Shown here: positions 10,577 to 15,945 of the stretch, in pieces
Layout of the letters: each line of letters starts with the position of its first letter
Position numbering within the stretch: position 1 is the first letter of the stretch
IMG/VR virus record: IMGVR_UViG_3300029877_000022
Span: 1 to 16,041 of that record
Strand: one strand, 5' to 3'
Length of the DNA: 16,041 nucleotides
DNA from: a virus
Taxonomy: Duplodnaviria > Heunggongvirae > Uroviricota > Caudoviricetes
Translations under genes and position numbers: made by a program
The notes under the pieces: model-generated
Told to the model about the DNA's origin: nothing
Seen by the model: the letters and a program-made list of their open reading frames with translations, nothing else
Databases searched by the model: none

Positions 10577-11872
10577 ATGGCTACTTGGCAAGGATCAAAT
10601 GGCGGATTGTTGGCTGGTATCGGCGGCGTCAACTCAAACGCTCCGAGCGTAAATGACATCGGCAATACGCTTCAGCTTATCAGGCAGAACAATGATATTG
10701 AGCGTTCAGGCGCTAACAATGTTGGGCTGACTGCTTTGCAAGGCCTTTCAGGTATTGCAGGAGTGTTTCAGCAGGAAAAGCAGGCTCAGCGGCAGAAAGA
10801 ATTTCAGCAGGCGTACGCTAATGCTTATACGTCTGGTGATCGCGGTGCTTTGCGTCAGTTGGCTACTCAATATCCAGACCAGATTGAATCCGTTCGTAAA
10901 GGCATGGGATTCATTGATGAAGACCAGCGCAATTCCATCGGTACCTTAGCGGCTGGCGCACGCCTTGCGTCATCGTCTCCAGAAGCAATGCAATCATGGC
11001 TGCAAAACAACGCCAAGGAACTGACTCGCGTCGGTGTTGACCCTAATAACGTTGCTCAGATGTATCAGCAGAATCCTTCAGGATTTGGTGAGTTTGTTGA
11101 TCACCTTGGAATGGCTGCTCTTGGTCCGATTGATTACTTCAATGTTCAGGACAAGATGGCTGGTCGTGAGATTGACCGAGGCAGGCTGGCAGAGACAATC
11201 CGCAGCAATCAGGCAGGAGAAGCACTAACAGCTCGAGGTCAGGACATCCAGATACGTGGACAGAACATCAGCGCACAGAATGCTGCTCTTTCCCGAGAAA
11301 TACAAAGAGCAGAATTACAAGAAAAGGCTCTGGACAGACAGATAGCCAGAGAAAGCAATCAGTTAAAGCTTGAAGAGCTAAAACAGAAACAGGCAGATGT
11401 TCGGCAAAAGGCTGACATAGCCCGCGCTGACAGGCAGGCCGCCGCTCAGGGTGCAGTTGATACGTTCAGCACCGCGCTTGATTCTCTCAACGAGATAGAG
11501 CAAAGCCCCGGCCTTTCAAAAGCAGTAGGAATTCGCTCAGCGTTTCCGACAGTTCCTGGCTCTGATGCGGCTAACTTTGAAGCAAGGCTCGACACCTTTA
11601 AAGCTCAAACATTCCTTCCTATGGTGCAGTCCCTGAAGGGTATGGGCGCTCTTTCAGATGCAGAGGGTAAAAAATTATCCGATGCGGTTGGTGCCCTAAG
11701 CCCCAAAATGAGTGAAAAGGCTTTTCGTGACTCTATCGGAAAGATTAGAAATCAGCTTGAAAGCAAGTTGAGCACTGTTAAAAAACAGTTTGATTATCAG
11801 GAGCCGGTGCAGAATATGCCAGGGCAACAATCTACTACTGGCAGTAACTTTTCTTCGCTATGGGGTGATTAA
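10577..11872 (+). CDS. Ejection (internal virion) protein, P22 gp20-like
   Basis: 431-aa ORF in the syntenic position, with AAGGGG RBS. Contains a long charged coiled-coil segment (IRGQNISAQNAALSREIQRAELQEKALDRQIARESNQLKLEELKQKQADVRQKADIARADRQ). Confidence 0.7.
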   Translation: MATWQGSNGGLLAGIGGVNSNAPSVNDIGNTLQLIRQNNDIERSGANNVGLTALQGLSGIAGVFQQEKQAQRQKEFQQAYANAYTSGDRGALRQLATQYPDQIESVRKGMGFIDEDQRNSIGTLAAGARLASSSPEAMQSWLQNNAKELTRVGVDPNNVAQMYQQNPSGFGEFVDHLGMAALGPIDYFNVQDKMAGREIDRGRLAETIRSNQAGEALTARGQDIQIRGQNISAQNAALSREIQRAELQEKALDRQIARESNQLKLEELKQKQADVRQKADIARADRQAAAQGAVDTFSTALDSLNEIEQSPGLSKAVGIRSAFPTVPGSDAANFEARLDTFKAQTFLPMVQSLKGMGALSDAEGKKLSDAVGALSPKMSEKAFRDSIGKIRNQLESKLSTVKKQFDYQEPVQNMPGQQSTTGSNFSSLWGD

Positions 11873-13869
11873 TGGCTAAAGCATGGAAAGATGTTATCGC
11901 CTCTCCACAGTATCAGGCGTTAGCACCAGAACAAAAAGCGCAGGCTCAGGAGCAATACTTCAATGAAGTCGTTGCCCCGCAAGCCGGAGAAAATGCAGAG
12001 CAGGCTAAGCAAGCTTTCTATGCTGCCTATCCATTGCCATCTGTGCAGCCAGTGGAGACACAACAACCAGTATCACAGCAACAACCACAGCAAAGTGGAT
12101 TTATGTCGGATCTTGGTGAAGCCGTGAAAGAAACTGGTCGCGGACTGGTGCAGGCTGGCGTGAACGTGGCAAACATACCTGCATCAGTTGCCGATGCTGT
12201 AACAAGCGCGGCGGCTTGGGCTGGCGGTAAACTCGGAATTGGCGATGGGACATATCACCCAGCGCCACGAGTAACAACGCAGGGATTAGAGCAGGACTTT
12301 GGCCTTCAGCAAGGCGCGCTGACTCCACAAACTACAGAGGGCAGGGTATTTGCTGAGGCATTGCCTTACCTCACTCCTGCTGGCATTGAGAGAGCGGCAA
12401 CACAGGCACCAACACTCGCTGGTAGAATCGCTCAGGGTGCAACTCGCCTTCTCGCTGAAAACGCAGTCGGGTCACTTGCTGCAAATAGTGCGAAAGATGA
12501 TGCGGAAGCACTCGCTACCGATTTAGGCATTGGCGTTCTGGCTGGCGGCGCTATTAACGCTGCCGGACGTGGATTAGGCGCTGCTTATCGTGGCGTTCGT
12601 GGTGCTATTGCACCAGAAGCGCAGCAAGCTATCAGATTTGCAGAGCGTGAAGGAGTGCCTCTGCACACCACAGACCTGTTACAGCCTAGTTCCCGCGTCG
12701 GAAAAATGGCGCAAACGACAGCAGAAAATATCCCCCTGGCTGGCACAAGCGGAATGAGAGCAACGCAACAGGAAGCGAGAAGCCAGTTGGTTCAGAGATT
12801 TGCTGATAAATTCGGTGAGTATGATCCAGCGGTTGTTATTGACAGCCTTAAAGCGAAAACATCAGGAATTCGTCGCGCTGCAGGAAATCGACTGGAGCAG
12901 GTTCAGAATGCTATGGCGGGAATAAACATTCAGCCTGCAAGAGCAATTCAGCAGATTGATACAGAAATATCTAACCTGCAGAAGCTTGGTAAGGTTGCTG
13001 ATAACGAGACTATTTCAAAACTTCAGTCCTATCGTGATGAGCTTGTTCGCAATGCTGGTCCTGATGGTCCGGTAAATCTGGATTTGAAGCAATTAAGCGA
13101 TCTGCGCAGCCAGTTCAGAATGGACGTGAAGGGTGAGCGACCAGTGTTACCAAACCGTTCCGATGCTGCCATTCAGCGCGTTTACAAGGCAATGACCGAC
13201 GATATCAATGGTGCCATTGGTCAGAATCTTGGCAACGATACTCTCCGTAAATATCAGCAGGCCAATGCCGTCTACGCTGACGAAGCCGCGAAACTAAAGA
13301 ATACCAGGCTGAAGAATGTTCTCATGAAAGGCGATCTGACGCCGGAAGTTGTCAACAACATGCTATTCAGCAAGAACAAATCGGAAATTAAGACGCTGTA
13401 TAACTCAGTTGGTCGTGTTGGCAGGGCGCAAATGCGCAATGGCATCATTGGAAAGGCGATGGAGAAATCTGGCGGATCCCCTGACCAGTTCCTTCGGCAG
13501 CTTAACATCCTGCAAAACCAGACTGGCATCACATTTAAGGGGCAGGACGCTGCTTATCTGAAAGGATTAAAAAACTACCTGCAATCTACGCAGCAGGCTG
13601 CAAAAGCGGCAGTAACAACACCCACAGGGCAGCAAACTATCCCGTTCATTATTGGGTATGGGACGGCAATGAACCCTGCGACAACTGGCGCAGCAGTAAG
13701 CTACGGACTTCTTACTCGCGCCTATGAGAGCGAGCCATTCAGAAATGCAATGCTCAGAATGGCAAACACCCCACGCGGATCAACAGCGTTTGAGAAAGCC
13801 ATGCAGCAGGCACAAAAGGCAATTAACGCTATGACGCAGGGGGCTAAGTCTGATGCGTTGTCAGAATAG
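11872..13869 (+). CDS. Ejection (internal virion) protein, P22 gp16-like
   Basis: 665-aa ORF, last gene of the ejection protein trio. TAATG start/stop overlap with the previous gene. Assignment by synteny and size (P22 gp16 about 609 aa). Q/P-rich N-terminal segment. Confidence 0.7.
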   Translation: MAKAWKDVIASPQYQALAPEQKAQAQEQYFNEVVAPQAGENAEQAKQAFYAAYPLPSVQPVETQQPVSQQQPQQSGFMSDLGEAVKETGRGLVQAGVNVANIPASVADAVTSAAAWAGGKLGIGDGTYHPAPRVTTQGLEQDFGLQQGALTPQTTEGRVFAEALPYLTPAGIERAATQAPTLAGRIAQGATRLLAENAVGSLAANSAKDDAEALATDLGIGVLAGGAINAAGRGLGAAYRGVRGAIAPEAQQAIRFAEREGVPLHTTDLLQPSSRVGKMAQTTAENIPLAGTSGMRATQQEARSQLVQRFADKFGEYDPAVVIDSLKAKTSGIRRAAGNRLEQVQNAMAGINIQPARAIQQIDTEISNLQKLGKVADNETISKLQSYRDELVRNAGPDGPVNLDLKQLSDLRSQFRMDVKGERPVLPNRSDAAIQRVYKAMTDDINGAIGQNLGNDTLRKYQQANAVYADEAAKLKNTRLKNVLMKGDLTPEVVNNMLFSKNKSEIKTLYNSVGRVGRAQMRNGIIGKAMEKSGGSPDQFLRQLNILQNQTGITFKGQDAAYLKGLKNYLQSTQQAAKAAVTTPTGQQTIPFIIGYGTAMNPATTGAAVSYGLLTRAYESEPFRNAMLRMANTPRGSTAFEKAMQQAQKAINAMTQGAKSDALSE

Positions 13870-13962
13870 CTTTTCAAACACCAGGAACGTGCAAAAACCA
13901 AATATGTAGAACGCGAGGTTTATCGTATCCCTCTGCATAGGCGATGATACATTTGCTGATTG

Positions 13963-14448
13963 TTATCTGATGTTACTGCTACTGTTGCATGTGACTGTAT
14001 TTCCAAACCCTGAATTGCAGTTTGTGTAAGTTTCAACTCGTGTTGGATAGGGTTGAGTTATAACAGGCTGTCTCGCTTTTTGCTCGATCGCTTGCATTGT
14101 GTTTACAGCCTGATAATTCAATAAAGCCTGCTGGAATGCTTGGCTTTGCGCTATTTGTTGGGCTTGTTCTTGGCTTTGTAGTTGAACATAAAGATTCTGA
14201 AGCTCAAGTCTTGCCTGCGCGTCACTTATCTTGCCATCATCGACACCTTGCCCGAGCATCTTCGCAGCAAGGACATATAACTTAGGTGTTGGTGCTGATG
14301 CCATGCGTGAGTCGTTCTTCACGCTAGCATCAAGGCAATTAGCCATATCGCTAAGCTTTGGATAGCGTTGTTCGCAATTTGCCTGATAGTCGCTAACCTT
14401 TGCGCACCCTGCCAGCAGAAGCGGGATAATTAACAGTGATTTTTTCAT
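13963..14448 (-). CDS. Predicted secreted lipoprotein, function unknown (accessory/moron gene)
   Basis: Minus-strand ORF. I place the start at the ATG at 14446..14448 (MKKSLLIIPLLLAGC) because AAGGAG lies 9 nt upstream and this gives a canonical lipoprotein signal peptide with lipobox LAGC. Mature part has cysteines near both ends and a Q-rich helical middle. No recognisable homologue from memory. Confidence 0.7.
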   Translation of the reverse strand: MKKSLLIIPLLLAGCAKVSDYQANCEQRYPKLSDMANCLDASVKNDSRMASAPTPKLYVLAAKMLGQGVDDGKISDAQARLELQNLYVQLQSQEQAQQIAQSQAFQQALLNYQAVNTMQAIEQKARQPVITQPYPTRVETYTNCNSGFGNTVTCNSSSNIR

Positions 14449-14582
14449 ATGATTAACTCTCCTTATCTTTGCCATCATGGCACTGTTGGGTGTAAATGAG
14501 TTATTAACTCAATCGACAATATCTTCACGAAAATACTTTTTATTATTAAGATCTTTCTGATTCTAACAAAACGGAAAGTAAT

Positions 14583-15002
14583 ATGAAGAGGATTATCGGC
14601 GTCGTTGCTGGCGCTATATTGTTATCTGGGTGCGCAACTATTGTTGGTGATGAAACGCAGCTTGTGCAAGTGAACAGCAATCCTTCTGGCGCGAGCTTTA
14701 AGGTAAAAGATGAATCTGGTGTGATTGTTGCGCAAGGTAAGACTCCACAAGGTGTAACACTCGCCAAGTCAGATGGTAGCTATTTTGGCAAAAAGAGCTA
14801 CCAGATCACTATGGAGAAGGATGGGTACGAACCAGTTACCCTGCCAATCAAAGCCAATGCTAATGGTTGGTATATTGGTGGGAACCTTGTGTTTGGTGGG
14901 TTAATTGGTTGGCTTGCTGTAGATCCATTTAATGGTGGGATGTATACCTTGAAGCCTAAAGAGGCAAATGCATCCCTTATACCGTCCACAAAGCAAGACT
15001 AA
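14583..15002 (+). CDS. Predicted lipoprotein with PEGA-like domain, function unknown (accessory/moron gene)
   Basis: 139-aa ORF with lipoprotein signal MKRIIGVVAGAILLSGC (lipobox LSGC). Middle region NPSGASFKVKD...GKTPQGVTL...YQITMEKDGYEP resembles the PEGA domain pattern. Gly/Trp-rich C-terminal segment GWYIGGNLVFGGLIGWLAVDPFNGGMYTL. Followed by a terminator. Confidence 0.7.
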   Translation: MKRIIGVVAGAILLSGCATIVGDETQLVQVNSNPSGASFKVKDESGVIVAQGKTPQGVTLAKSDGSYFGKKSYQITMEKDGYEPVTLPIKANANGWYIGGNLVFGGLIGWLAVDPFNGGMYTLKPKEANASLIPSTKQD

Positions 15003-15009
15003 TAAATGG

Positions 15010-15033
15010 AACCCACCATCAGGTGGGTTTTTT
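15010..15033 (+). terminator. Rho-independent terminator after the lipoprotein gene, overlapping the mnt stop codon
   Basis: AACCCACC-ATCA-GGTGGGTT hairpin (15010..15029) followed by a T-run to 15033. The poor U-tract on the opposite strand suggests it acts mainly on + strand transcripts. Confidence 0.7.
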
Positions 15034-15270
15034 GTACAAATCCTTCAGCGTATCAAACACCATCTTCTTAACAAGTTCAGACTGCTCATCAGCGATGCGT
15101 TCCGCATCGTCTCGATAGCCTGAAATTTTGGATGGCCTTGATACAGCATCAGTCACTATCTGAACTAATTCTGAATTAAGAGAGCGGCCATTGGATTTGG
15201 CTCGCTGTTTTAGTTTTTCCTTTAATTCGTAAGGTAGCCGCAGATTAAATTGCGGGTCATCTCTTCCCAT
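15019..15270 (-). CDS. mnt: Mnt repressor (ribbon-helix-helix, Arc/MetJ family)
   Basis: 83-aa minus-strand ORF MGRDDPQFNLRLPYELKEKLKQRAKSNGRSLNSELVQIVTDAVSRPSKISGYRDDAERIADEQSELVKKMVFDTLKDLYKKPT. Near-identical in length and sequence to P22 Mnt as I recall it, including the N-terminal beta-strand DNA-reading motif and C-terminal tetramerisation helix. Confidence 0.9.
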   Translation of the reverse strand: MGRDDPQFNLRLPYELKEKLKQRAKSNGRSLNSELVQIVTDAVSRPSKISGYRDDAERIADEQSELVKKMVFDTLKDLYKKPT

Positions 15271-15332
15271 TCTTGATGCCTCGCTCTTGTGAGTGGATCG
15301 GCATCTTATTATCTGCTGGTTGCATCCTCAAT

Positions 15333-15349
15333 AAGACCACGGTGGTCGT
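15333..15349. promoter_or_regulatory. Mnt operator-like 17-bp palindrome
   Basis: AAGACCACGGTGGTCGT has a symmetric core GACCAC-G-GTGGTC (15335..15347). It resembles the P22 Mnt operator as I recall it (AGGTCCACGGTGGACCT). Located in the 135-bp gap between the mnt start and the tailspike start. Confidence 0.6.
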
Positions 15350-15405
15350 ATTTTTTGATTAATAATGAATCACTGCGGCCATTCCTTGTATCTGGAGCAA
15401 ATTAA

Positions 15406-15945
15406 ATGACAGACATTACAGCCAATGTTGTAGTGAGTATGCCTTCGCAACTCTTCACTATGGCTCGTTCTTTTAAAGCCGTAGCCAATGGCAAAATTTA
15501 TATCGGTAAAATTGACACTGACCCGGTAAATCCTGAAAACCAGATTCAGGTCTATGTTGAGAACGAAGATGGTTCTCACGTTCCTGTTGCACAGCCAATC
15601 GTCATCAATGCCGCAGGGTATCCAGTATATAACGGACAGATTGCCAAATTCGTTACCGTGCAAGGCCATTCTATGGCTGTTTATGATGCGTATGGTGCAC
15701 AGCAGTTCTATTTTCCTAATGTGCTGAAGTATGACCCGGATCAGTTTAAACAAAAAGTATTATCAAATGATATGCTAAATATGTCTCCTCTTTATTTTGG
15801 AGCTAAGGGGGATGGGATTAGCGATGATACTGAAGCATTTGTCGCGTTGGAAATGGATATAAAAAATAGGGTTATTGATTTAAGTGGAAGAGCATTTTTT
15901 GTTACTAAAAGTTTTATTGGAAATAGCTATATAAATGGTTCTTAG
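15406..15945 (+). pseudogene. Tailspike gene truncated by IS2 insertion; retains the P22-type head-binding domain and the start of a pectate-lyase-like receptor-binding domain
   Basis: N-terminus [59 protein letters not shown]...[15 protein letters not shown]...[10 protein letters not shown] is the conserved tailspike head-binding domain. It is followed by an AT-rich segment encoding [16 protein letters not shown]. The frame ends at a TAG that is the first 3 nt of the IS2 end (15943), so the ORF is 179 codons instead of the 600 to 700 expected. Confidence 0.85.

What the first reader, a model, noticed from the sequence alone, without database searches (positions are those of the whole stretch)
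14449..14582. Divergent AT-rich control region between the two lipoprotein genes with repeated TTAACTC and a 13-bp palindrome
The 134-bp region between the divergently transcribed lipoprotein genes contains TTAACTC twice (14454..14460 and 14504..14510). The second copy is part of the palindrome GAGTTATTAACTC (14498..14510). Such symmetric sites in a divergent promoter region suggest binding of a dimeric regulator that could coordinate both moron genes. I could not place confident -35/-10 hexamers by eye.
Basis: seen in the sequence. Interest (0 to 1): 0.4.

Follow-up and report, generated by a model that had tools for sequence, protein, structure and literature searches.

The report
Prophage divergent promoter spacer with palindrome
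The 134-base gap between two oppositely oriented prophage lipoprotein genes is an ordinary patchwork promoter region; the repeat and palindrome in it are real, but nothing beyond their symmetry marks them as a regulator's binding site.

Summary
The sequence features exist, with small corrections. The repeat is really 8 nt (ATTAACTC). The palindrome is really 15 bp (TGAGTTATTAACTCA, 14497-14511).

The window is a P22-like E. coli prophage, and its spacer is 100% identical to phage Gally of strain LF82. Published LF82 RNA-seq shows that both lipoprotein genes are transcribed on their own and rise strongly in DMEM and in macrophages. The spacer therefore does carry active divergent promoters. The best candidates are:
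- rightward: TTCACG-17-TAAGAT, whose hexamers are conserved in other contexts of the gene;
- leftward: TTCATA-16-TGtTAGAAT.

Repeat copy 1 lies between the Shine-Dalgarno sequence and the ATG of the leftward gene, and it travels with that gene in most of its contexts. Copy 2 and the palindrome sit in a 56-bp filler found only in one near-clonal lineage (25 of 5426 E. coli genomes). Related prophages with the same two genes back to back lack the palindrome. It does not recur meaningfully elsewhere in the phage genome, and it matches no recalled operator consensus.

Statistics are marginal: p is about 0.03 for the palindrome and 0.18 for the repeat. An operator role is possible but unsupported, at roughly 15%. 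Interest is low.

The parts
13963..14448 (-). Leftward lipoprotein gene (161 aa, MKKSLLIIPLLLAGC...; PHROG 6067, function unknown). It is GALLYPH_13 / LF82_138.
   Evidence: the 486-nt form is the one annotated in RefSeq genomes; 96-100% identical copies in 80 IMG/VR loci
14452..14459 (+). Direct-repeat copy 1 (ATTAACTC). On the minus strand it is GAGTTAAT: the last G of the Shine-Dalgarno sequence AAGGAG (14464->14459) plus the start of the 10-nt spacer before ATG 14448.
   Evidence: GAGTTAA[C/T][C/T]ATATG precedes the ATG in 67 of 80 loci of this gene; GAGTTAG and GAGTTAT variants also exist
14470..14482 (.). Second perfect palindrome, TGCCATCATGGCA. It occupies the place where 51 of 80 related loci carry TGnTATCCT, an extended -10-like element.
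14467..14522 (.). Lineage-specific 56-bp filler between the two gene modules. It holds both palindromes and its origin is unknown.
   Evidence: Homology to other contexts of the leftward gene ends at about 14465-14479, and blastn homology to other contexts of the rightward gene starts at 14539. The -35 hexamer at 14524-14529 is shared across contexts by inspection. The segment is present in only 25 of 5426 E. coli genomes and 2 isolated phages. No significant match in upstream regions of chromosomal homologues.
14497..14511 (.). The palindrome TGAGTTA-T-TAACTCA, which includes direct-repeat copy 2 at 14503-14510. Its centre is at about -55 from the predicted rightward start and about +49 from the predicted leftward start.
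14524..14552 (+). Predicted rightward sigma-70 promoter: -35 TTCACG (14524-14529), 17-bp spacer, -10 TAAGAT (14547-14552), start at about 14559.
   Evidence: Best plus-strand candidate by PWM. The hexamers are kept as TTCACA-17-TAGGAT in the epsilon34-type context while the spacer is completely different. In a third context, homology begins exactly at CTTCACA. The -10 block is kept in Enterobacterales chromosomal homologues, often with an upstream TGn.
14560..14587 (-). Predicted leftward promoter: -35 TTCATA (14587->14582, overlapping the rightward ATG), 16-bp spacer, extended -10 TGtTAGAAT (14568->14560), start at about 14553.
   Evidence: best minus-strand candidate between the terminator and the gene. 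A promoter downstream of mnt is required because LF82_138 RNA exceeds mnt RNA in all five conditions. The position itself is not verified.
14553..14578 (+). CTTTCTG (14553-14559), directly after the -10, is complementary to CGGAAAG (14572-14578), which contains the rightward gene's Shine-Dalgarno sequence.
   Evidence: 6 of 6 pairing in 9 of 11 homologues, with the outer pair varying as C-G, G-C, A-U, U-A and G-U; the energies are weak
14583..15002 (+). Rightward lipoprotein gene (139 aa, MKRIIGVVAGAILLSGC...; weak PEGA-domain match; PHROG 6823). It is GALLYPH_14 / LF82_139.
   Evidence: chromosomal homologues at 47-80% identity across Gammaproteobacteria
15010..15029 (.). Stem-loop AACCCACC-TGAT-GGTGGGTT with flanking T runs. 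It is the terminator of the rightward gene and overlaps the 3' end of mnt.
   Evidence: the same element is annotated as a rho-independent terminator in epsilon34

Best explanation
The 134-bp spacer is a patchwork, back-to-back promoter region. It serves two independently acquired, prophage-expressed lipoprotein genes in the variable region between the last ejection-protein gene and mnt/tailspike of a P22-like phage.

Rightward gene. It brings its own unit: a promoter (TTCACG-17-TAAGAT, start near 14559), a ribosome-binding site, the gene and a terminator. This is a textbook moron.

Leftward gene. In most relatives it is driven either by an upstream mnt-like gene's promoter or by a conserved TGnTATCCT element just upstream of its ribosome-binding site. 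In this lineage that element is destroyed, and transcription most likely starts at an extended -10 promoter (TGtTAGAAT, start near 14553). That promoter lies inside the rightward gene's 5' untranslated region. The two promoters are therefore interleaved, and their -10 elements are 8 bp apart.

The repeat and palindrome. Copy 1 of TTAACTC is part of the leftward gene's translation-initiation region. Copy 2 and the palindrome lie in a 56-bp filler of unknown origin, upstream of the rightward -35 and within the presumed leftward leader. They most likely have no sequence-specific regulatory role.

Status of the steps. Shown: the anatomy, the mosaic boundaries, the conservation of the rightward promoter hexamers, and autonomous, condition-dependent transcription of both genes. 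Inferred: the exact start sites, the identity of the leftward promoter, and the lack of function of the palindrome.
For: Identity and context:
- The window is a P22-like structural-gene cluster followed by mnt and a tailspike head-binding domain.
- It is 97% identical to phages Gally and vB_EcoP-720R6 over 13870-15300, and its spacer is 100% identical to theirs.

Mosaicism:
- Phage VSe13 shares only the leftward gene, up to about 14465. Phage epsilon34 shares only the rightward gene.
- Among E. coli genomes, 25 have the full combination. The others match only 14539-14640 or only 14400-14465/79.

Rightward promoter:
- The hexamers are conserved across three upstream contexts, while the spacer has diverged.
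- One module boundary falls exactly at CTTCACA.
- The -10 block is conserved in chromosomal homologues.
- It is the top PWM candidate on its strand.

Leftward gene:
- 31 of 80 loci place it directly downstream of an mnt-like gene.
- 51 of 80 loci carry TGnTATCCT 15 nt upstream of AAGGAG; the window type has TGCCATGATGGCA at that place instead.
- The top minus-strand candidate is TTCATA-16-TGtTAGAAT.

Expression (PMC9928086 S1 Table), in log2(fpkm+5):
- LF82_138 is 6.1 in LB, 8.0-8.1 in DMEM, 10.3 in macrophages at 1 h and 8.6 at 6 h.
- LF82_139 is 5.5, 10.0-10.4, 11.0 and 9.4 in the same conditions.
- The flanking late gene LF82_137 stays at 3.6-4.1.
- mnt is always lower than LF82_138.

Palindrome:
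- It is absent from L076/L211, which carry the same two genes, and from all other contexts.
- The only other match in Gally with one mismatch or fewer is inside the late-terminator hairpin.
- Of 119 IMG/VR hits to the 15-mer, 113 have unrelated flanks that by eye look like ordinary AT-rich, probably coding, sequence; coding status was not checked.
- No recalled transcription-factor consensus fits it above chance. Rfam finds nothing. The leftward leader is not unusually structured, z = -0.43.
Against: - Two perfect 13-15-bp palindromes within 56 bp occur in only 0.5% of dinucleotide shuffles. That is more symmetry than an inert filler needs.
- Both genes do rise together in DMEM and macrophages, as a shared operator would predict.
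- All carriers of the filler are about 99% identical, so conservation can neither support nor refute a function within the lineage.
- No transcription start has been mapped. The leftward promoter assignment rests only on consensus scoring, and other antisense candidates exist inside the rightward gene at about 14818-14884.
Confidence: 0.62

Rival explanations
1. One reading: the palindrome, alone or with the second palindrome 28 bp away, is an operator for a dimeric host or phage regulator. From about -55 of the rightward promoter and about +49 of the leftward one, it would co-regulate both lipoprotein genes, for example to produce the induction seen in DMEM and macrophages.
For: - Perfect 7+1+7 dyad symmetry; 2.7% of shuffles reach it, and 0.5% reach two palindromes.
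- It lies in a spacer that must contain both promoters.
- Both genes are induced in the same conditions.
Against: - It is not present where the same two genes are divergent in other prophages (L076/L211), nor upstream of any other copy of either gene, phage or chromosomal.
- It does not overlap either predicted promoter core.
- There is no second regulatory copy in the phage genome; the one near-copy is a terminator stem.
- It is unlike the phage's C2 operators and its Mnt-operator-like palindrome, and unlike 13 recalled host or other operator consensus sequences.
- The induction also includes mnt, the tailspike gene and GALLYPH_17, so it is not specific to this spacer.
- The two genes differ in amplitude: LF82_139 rises about 4.5 log2 units in DMEM, LF82_138 about 1.9.
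Confidence: 0.15
2. The palindromes act at the RNA level. They would form small hairpins (GAGUU-AAU-AACUC and UGCCA-UGA-UGGCA) in the roughly 105-nt leader of the leftward transcript, affecting its stability, processing or translation.
For: - If the leftward start is near 14553, both palindromes are transcribed.
- Both hairpins appear in the minimum-free-energy and centroid folds.
- The second hairpin ends 5 nt upstream of the Shine-Dalgarno sequence.
- A deletion derivative (L191) keeps exactly this leader fused to the mnt promoter region.
Against: - The leader folds no better than shuffles: z = -0.43, with 63 of 200 shuffles at least as stable.
- The stems are only 5 bp and, for the first, A/U-rich.
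- Other contexts of the gene have a leader of only about 25 nt with neither hairpin.
- There is no Rfam match.
Confidence: 0.08
3. The filler is a recombination scar or a relic of a former coding sequence, and the palindrome is an accident of that history. This is compatible with the best explanation and adds only an origin.
For: - Read on the minus strand, 14559->14509 gives ...QKDLNNKKYFREDIVD-stop, and the TGA lies inside the palindrome.
- AATAATAAAAAG is shared with the 3' end of the mnt-like gene that precedes the lipoprotein gene in 31 loci, which ends ...YSNNKKET-stop.
- On the plus strand, the palindrome would encode ELLTQ.
Against: - The match is only 12 nt.
- Part of the putative relic (14547-14559) is the -10 block, which is conserved in unrelated chromosomal contexts.
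- No significant homologue of the filler was found.
Confidence: 0.15

Closest known systems
Phage morons as defined for lambdoid phages by Juhala et al. 2000 and Hendrix et al. 2000 (recalled from memory): promoter + gene + terminator units inserted between phage genes and expressed from the prophage
   Same: - The rightward gene has a predicted promoter whose hexamers are conserved, and one module boundary starts at the -35.
- It has its own terminator.
- Its G+C is lower than the neighbouring late genes, 0.35-0.46 against 0.50-0.57.
- Its presence among relatives is patchy.
- It is transcribed while the flanking late genes are silent.
   Different: - The leftward gene has no detected terminator of its own.
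- In most relatives the leftward gene is part of an mnt-led operon rather than a self-contained unit.
- The two units share one interleaved promoter region.
P22 immI region and the Mnt operator (mnt - Omnt/Pant - arc - ant)
   Same: - Same genomic neighbourhood.
- An Mnt homologue (Arc fold plus Mnt C-terminal domain) lies 437 bp to the right.
- A perfect 13-bp dyad, GACCACGGTGGTC, sits in its promoter region (15335-15347). This is what a real operator looks like in this phage.
   Different: - The palindrome in the finding shares no half-site with the Mnt dyad: best match 8 of 15, at chance.
- arc and ant are absent from this phage.
- The Mnt dyad sits in the mnt-tailspike intergenic region at the position where epsilon34 annotates Pmnt/Pant and arcO. 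The palindrome lies outside both predicted promoter cores.
IS10 'fold-back inhibition' of transposase translation in read-through transcripts (Davis, Simons and Kleckner 1985; recalled from memory)
   Same: For the side observation only. The bases immediately upstream of the predicted start are complementary to the gene's own Shine-Dalgarno sequence. Only transcripts entering from upstream could therefore sequester the ribosome-binding site.
   Different: - This is untested here.
- The stems are 6-7 bp with loops of about 12 nt, and their energies are mostly within the shuffle range.
- No start site has been mapped.

Membership tests
Phage moron (promoter + gene + terminator unit) | Lies between conserved phage genes and is present in some relatives but absent from others | tested here: met
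   Each lipoprotein gene occurs without the other in related phages and prophages, always between the last ejection-protein gene and mnt/tailspike.
Phage moron (promoter + gene + terminator unit) | Own promoter | tested here: inconclusive
   Rightward gene: conserved TTCAC[G/A]-17-TA[A/G]GAT, with a module boundary at the -35. Leftward gene: a consensus-level candidate only. RNA-seq requires promoters for both. No start site has been mapped.
Phage moron (promoter + gene + terminator unit) | Own terminator | tested here: met
   Met for the rightward gene: stem-loop 15010-15029 with T runs, annotated as a terminator in epsilon34. No terminator-like site was found downstream of the leftward gene in 13870-13962.
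Phage moron (promoter + gene + terminator unit) | Transcribed from the repressed prophage, independently of lytic genes | tested here: met
   From the literature, for the identical spacer in LF82: LF82_138 and LF82_139 reach 8-11 log2(fpkm+5) while the adjacent late gene stays at 3.6-4.1 (PMC9928086 S1 Table). In LB stationary phase they are only 3.3-4.5 times background, below that paper's 5-fold cutoff.
Operator of a dimeric transcription regulator | Dyad symmetry beyond chance | tested here: inconclusive
   A 7+1+7 perfect dyad occurs in 2.7% of shuffles of the spacer, and two 6-arm dyads in 0.5%. The 16-kb window holds 11 perfect 6-arm dyads, mostly in coding sequence, and the test was chosen after seeing the data.
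Operator of a dimeric transcription regulator | Positioned to affect RNA polymerase (overlapping the core promoter or at a standard activator position) | tested here: inconclusive
   The centre is at about -55 of the predicted rightward start and about +49 of the predicted leftward start, with no overlap of any predicted hexamer. The starts themselves are only predicted.
Operator of a dimeric transcription regulator | Conserved wherever the regulated genes occur | tested here: not met
   Absent from L076/L211 (same gene pair), from the type B and type C contexts of the rightward gene, from all other contexts of the leftward gene, and from chromosomal homologues.
Operator of a dimeric transcription regulator | Recurs at other regulated promoters, or matches a known operator | tested here: not met
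   In Gally the only other match with one mismatch or fewer is the late-terminator stem. IMG/VR hits outside the lineage have unrelated flanks. A panel of 15 recalled consensus sequences gave nothing above chance at the palindrome.
Operator of a dimeric transcription regulator | A cognate protein binds it | not testable with these tools
   This needs a gel shift, a footprint or a DNA pull-down.

The most novel reading that the evidence does not exclude
The two perfect palindromes in the lineage-specific 56-bp filler (14470-14482 and 14497-14511) are binding sites for an unidentified host or phage regulator. That regulator would switch on both prophage lipoprotein genes when the adherent-invasive E. 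coli host leaves rich medium or enters macrophages. Gally-type prophages would then carry a host-environment-responsive moron pair, although the published analysis reports none.
Probability: 0.12. Interest if true: 0.5.

Novelty: new member of a known kind. Interest (0 to 1): 0.2.

Why it matters
The practical gain is annotation and a pointer rather than a new mechanism.

- The two 'hypothetical' genes of Gally-type prophages are lipoprotein morons with their own interleaved promoters. Published data show they reach repressor-like RNA levels in DMEM and in macrophages, even though the prophage was reported as moron-free from LB data.
- These prophages are found in LF82 and 24 other complete E. 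coli genomes.
- Anyone studying what this prophage gives adherent-invasive E. coli should look at these two genes and this spacer.
- The palindrome is a cheap mutational target in such a study, but it should not be annotated as an operator.

Tried and rejected
- Known RNA family in 13800-15450: none at E <= 1.
- Structured leftward leader: z = -0.43, rejected.
- Motif enrichment: TTAACTC occurs 3 times in the window against 1.42 expected. In Gally there are 9 occurrences on both strands. My own arithmetic gives about 4.7 expected for a uniform 38.7-kb sequence. All but the two in the spacer and the one in the late-terminator hairpin fall within annotated genes.
- A second operator copy in the phage: the one-mismatch hit at Gally 35240 looked promising because it is intergenic, just after the late promoter. 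It is the stem-loop of the late terminator, AAAGCCCTGAGTTAATAGCTCGGGGCTTT followed by a T run.
- Palindrome upstream of chromosomal homologues of the rightward gene: none within 3 mismatches in the 43 loci checked (L082-L124, viral and chromosomal).
- Origin of the 56-bp filler: no other context in 5426 E. coli genomes or 50,697 phage records. No significant similarity to upstream regions of homologues. An apparent MAFFT alignment to Tatumella did not survive BLAST.
- Sigma-54 reading of TGGCAC-N5-...: the -12 GC is missing, so it was rejected by inspection.
- Match to the Fur, CRP, FNR, PhoP, ArcA, IHF, LexA, TrpR, TyrR, Mnt, P22 C2, OmpR, NagC, Zur or MntR consensus (all recalled from memory): nothing above chance at the palindrome. 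The best was a Fur-like 13 of 19 match in the rightward promoter spacer, p about 0.11.
- Start-site data from another phage carrying the rightward gene: only Gally, 720R6 and epsilon34 among isolated phages have it, and none has mapped start sites that I could find.
- A CRISPRi study of LF82 mentions Gally but not these genes.
- An in-register alignment for the count of structure pairs on the anti-Shine-Dalgarno stem failed because MAFFT put the gaps at the ends. A scripted arm-pairing test replaced it.

Full report
**What the window is.** The ORFs and domain hits identify a P22-like (Lederbergvirus) virion-gene cluster. After the last ejection-protein gene (11872-13869) come these features:
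- a minus-strand lipoprotein gene (13963-14448);
- a plus-strand lipoprotein gene with a weak PEGA-domain match (14583-15002);
- a stem-loop terminator (15010-15029);
- mnt on the minus strand (15019-15270; Arc and Mnt domains);
- a tailspike head-binding domain (from 15406).

The stretch 13870-15300 is 97% identical to Escherichia phages Gally (a prophage of strain LF82) and vB_EcoP-720R6. The 134-bp spacer is 100% identical in both.

**The observation.**
- TTAACTC is at 14453-14459, one base left of the coordinates given, and at 14504-14510. GAGTTATTAACTC is at 14498-14510.
- Extending the matches gives an 8-nt direct repeat (ATTAACTC) and a 15-bp palindrome (TGAGTTA-T-TAACTCA, 14497-14511).
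- A second perfect palindrome, TGCCATCATGGCA (14470-14482), was not reported.
- The 7-mer count is at chance: 3 against 1.42 expected. Some 8-mer repeat arises in 18% of dinucleotide shuffles of the spacer.
- A 7-arm palindrome arises in 2.7% of shuffles, and two 6-arm palindromes in 0.5%.
- The 16-kb window as a whole has 11 perfect 6-arm palindromes.

The repeat is unremarkable. The symmetry is nominally unusual, but the test was chosen after looking at the data.

**What copy 1 is.** On the minus strand the sequence reads AAGGAG-AGTTAATCAT-ATG. Copy 1 (GAGTTAA) is the last base of the Shine-Dalgarno sequence plus the spacer to the start codon of the leftward gene.

In 80 IMG/VR loci carrying this gene (96-100% protein identity), GAGTTAA[C/T][C/T]ATATG precedes the ATG in 67 loci. 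This holds whatever lies further upstream. GAGTTAG and GAGTTAT variants exist, and nine loci have a different ribosome-binding region. No locus outside the window's lineage has a second copy. Copy 1 is thus explained by the gene's translation-initiation region.

**Where the palindrome sits.**
- Salmonella phage VSe13 shares only the leftward gene, with homology ending near 14465. Phage epsilon34 shares only the rightward gene.
- In 5426 complete E. coli genomes, 25 have the whole arrangement. Others match only 14539-14640 or only 14400-14465/72/79.
- The middle segment alone (14462-14545) finds only those 25 genomes, LF82 among them, all at least 98.8% identical.
- It finds nothing further among 50,697 phage records.

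The palindrome therefore lies in a filler of about 56 bp (14467-22) private to one near-clonal lineage. The origin of the filler could not be traced.

**Natural controls.**
- The rightward gene has three upstream contexts in 80 IMG/VR loci: the window type, an epsilon34 type and a third in which a plus-strand gene precedes it.
- Locus L076 (also seen as L211) has the same two lipoprotein genes divergently arranged, but with the epsilon34-type spacer and no palindrome.
- Upstream regions of the 43 homologue loci checked, viral and chromosomal, contain nothing within 3 mismatches of it.

**The promoters.**

*Rightward.*
- Across the three contexts the only conserved upstream blocks are TTCAC[G/A], then 17 bp, then TA[A/G]GAT followed by [C/G]TTTC[C/T]G. 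The 17-bp spacer differs completely between contexts.
- In the third context, homology starts exactly at CTTCACA.
- The -10 block persists in chromosomal homologues from Erwiniaceae, Tatumella, Rosenbergiella and Pseudescherichia, often preceded by TGn.
- This is the footprint of a sigma-70 promoter with -35 at 14524-14529, -10 at 14547-14552 and a start near 14559. It is also the top plus-strand candidate in a simple PWM scan.

*Leftward.*
- In 31 of 80 loci the gene follows an mnt-like gene in an operon-like arrangement.
- In 51 of 80 loci TGnTATCCT lies 15 nt upstream of AAGGAG. The same cassette precedes a different gene, hkcB, in epsilon34.
- In the window lineage this element is replaced by the second palindrome. 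The best remaining candidate is TTCATA-16-TGtTAGAAT (14587->14560, start near 14553).
- If both assignments hold, the promoters are interleaved back to back. The palindrome centre is then at about -55 for the rightward promoter and about +49 for the leftward one, outside both cores.

**Expression data.** Misson et al. 2023 (PMC9928086) re-analysed stranded RNA-seq of LF82. Values from their S1 Table, in log2(fpkm+5):

| Gene | LB stationary | DMEM 1 h / 6 h | Macrophage 1 h | Macrophage 6 h |
|---|---|---|---|---|
| GALLYPH_13 (leftward) | 6.3 / 6.0 | 7.9-8.2 | 10.3 | 8.5-8.7 |
| GALLYPH_14 (rightward) | 6.2 / 4.8 | 9.8-10.5 | 11.0 | 9.4-9.5 |
| adjacent late gene | 3.6-4.1 | 3.6-4.1 | 3.6-4.1 | 3.6-4.1 |
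| mnt | 3.6-3.9 | 5.7 / 7.0 | 9.0 | 8.4 |
| c2 repressor | 8.9-12.0 across all conditions | | | |

Three conclusions follow.
- Both genes are transcribed autonomously and are condition-dependent.
- The leftward gene needs a promoter of its own, because it always exceeds mnt.
- The paper's statement that Gally has no morons reflects its 5-fold cutoff in LB: 70 and 51 against a cutoff of 78.

The paper also notes that the five rightmost prophage genes are all induced in macrophages. The co-induction is therefore regional, not specific to this spacer. The two genes also differ in amplitude.

**Tests of the operator idea.**
- In the 38.7-kb Gally genome the only other site within one mismatch is at 35240. 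It is the stem-loop of the terminator that follows the late promoter.
- The phage's C2 operators are P22-like (ATTTAAG...CTTAAAT). Its Mnt-operator-like dyad is GACCACGGTGGTC (15335-15347). Neither resembles the palindrome.
- A panel of recalled consensus sequences (Fur, CRP, FNR, PhoP, ArcA, IHF, LexA, TrpR, TyrR, OmpR, NagC, Zur, MntR) gave no match above chance at the palindrome.
- An exact scan of IMG/VR for the 15-mer returned 119 or more loci. Six are this lineage. The other 113 have unrelated flanks that by eye look like ordinary AT-rich, probably coding, sequence; coding status was not checked.
- Rfam finds nothing, and the presumed leftward leader folds no better than shuffles.

**Verdict.** The specific proposal rests only on symmetry. 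It held that the repeated TTAACTC and the palindrome mark a dimeric regulator's site coordinating both genes. One copy is the ribosome-binding region of the leftward gene. The other is in a private filler that relatives with the same gene pair lack.

I put the chance that the palindrome is a real protein-binding site at about 15%, an RNA-level role at under 10%, and no specific function at about 60%. The residual oddity is that two perfect palindromes share a 56-bp filler. Because all carriers are about 99% identical, only experiments can settle it.

**Side observation.** The six bases immediately after the rightward -10 (NTTTCY) pair 6 of 6 with the gene's Shine-Dalgarno hexamer in 9 of 11 homologues. 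The outer pair appears as C-G, G-C, A-U, U-A or G-U.

If the start is where the -10 predicts, only read-through transcripts from upstream would contain the 5' arm. That would silence their translation, much like IS10 fold-back inhibition. The stems are weak and mostly within the shuffle range, so this is a lead and not a finding.

Noticed in passing
window 14470-14482: A second perfect 13-bp palindrome, TGCCATCATGGCA, lies 28 bp (centre to centre) from the reported one. It replaces the TGnTATCCT element that 51 of 80 related loci carry at this position. Two perfect palindromes in the 134-bp spacer occur in only 0.5% of shuffles.
   Followed up: partly
L002 1390-1425; L004-L007; L169-L248 (about 40 nt upstream of the leftward gene's ATG): A conserved cassette, TCATGnTATCCTGnnnAAAACTAAGGAG (an extended -10-like element plus a Shine-Dalgarno sequence), precedes different leftward genes in P22-like phages: hkcB in epsilon34, and the lipoprotein gene elsewhere. 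What lies upstream of it varies. In some loci its complement also supplies the ribosome-binding site and ATG of a rightward gene (AGGATACCATG). It looks like a portable promoter/RBS boundary sequence.
   Followed up: partly
window 14553-14559 and 14572-14578: CTTTCTG directly after the rightward -10 is complementary to CGGAAAG, which contains the Shine-Dalgarno sequence. The same pairing (6 of 6) is kept in 9 of 11 homologues with compensatory outer pairs. It could insulate the gene from translation of read-through transcripts, but the energies are weak.
   Followed up: partly
window 15019-15405; L191 1000-1200: This phage keeps mnt and a dyad like the Mnt operator (GACCACGGTGGTC, 15335-15347) directly upstream of the tailspike gene, but it has no arc or ant. 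Locus L191 is a deletion derivative: the mnt promoter region and the first two mnt codons are fused to window position ~14537. The rightward lipoprotein gene and mnt are removed, and the palindrome-bearing leader is kept.
   Followed up: partly
window 13963-15002 (LF82_138 / LF82_139 in PMC9928086 S1 Table): The published paper lists Gally as the only LF82 prophage without morons. Its own table nevertheless shows these two genes at 3.3-4.5 times background in LB, and at levels close to the c2 repressor in DMEM and in macrophages.
   Followed up: yes
L088-L167: The rightward lipoprotein has chromosomal homologues at 47-80% identity across Gammaproteobacteria (Erwiniaceae, Photorhabdus, Xenorhabdus, Halomonas and others). 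The phage gene is therefore a captured bacterial lipoprotein of unknown function.
   Followed up: no
window 14400-14409 and 14628-14637: There is a 10-nt perfect inverted repeat, TTGCGCACCC / GGGTGCGCAA. Both arms encode the G-C-A of the two genes' lipoboxes on opposite strands, so it is a by-product of similar signal peptides.
   Followed up: yes
L168 (Gally) 35232-35260: The late-transcript terminator hairpin after the late promoter (TTGACT-17-TAAATT) contains GAGTTAATAGCTC. This is one mismatch from the reverse complement of the palindrome (GAGTTAATAACTC) and looks coincidental.
   Followed up: yes
window 14432-14438 and 14481-14487: A 7-nt inverted repeat, AACAGTG / CACTGTT, brackets the Shine-Dalgarno sequence and start codon of the leftward gene, leaving a 42-nt loop in the mRNA. 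Its significance was not examined.
   Followed up: no
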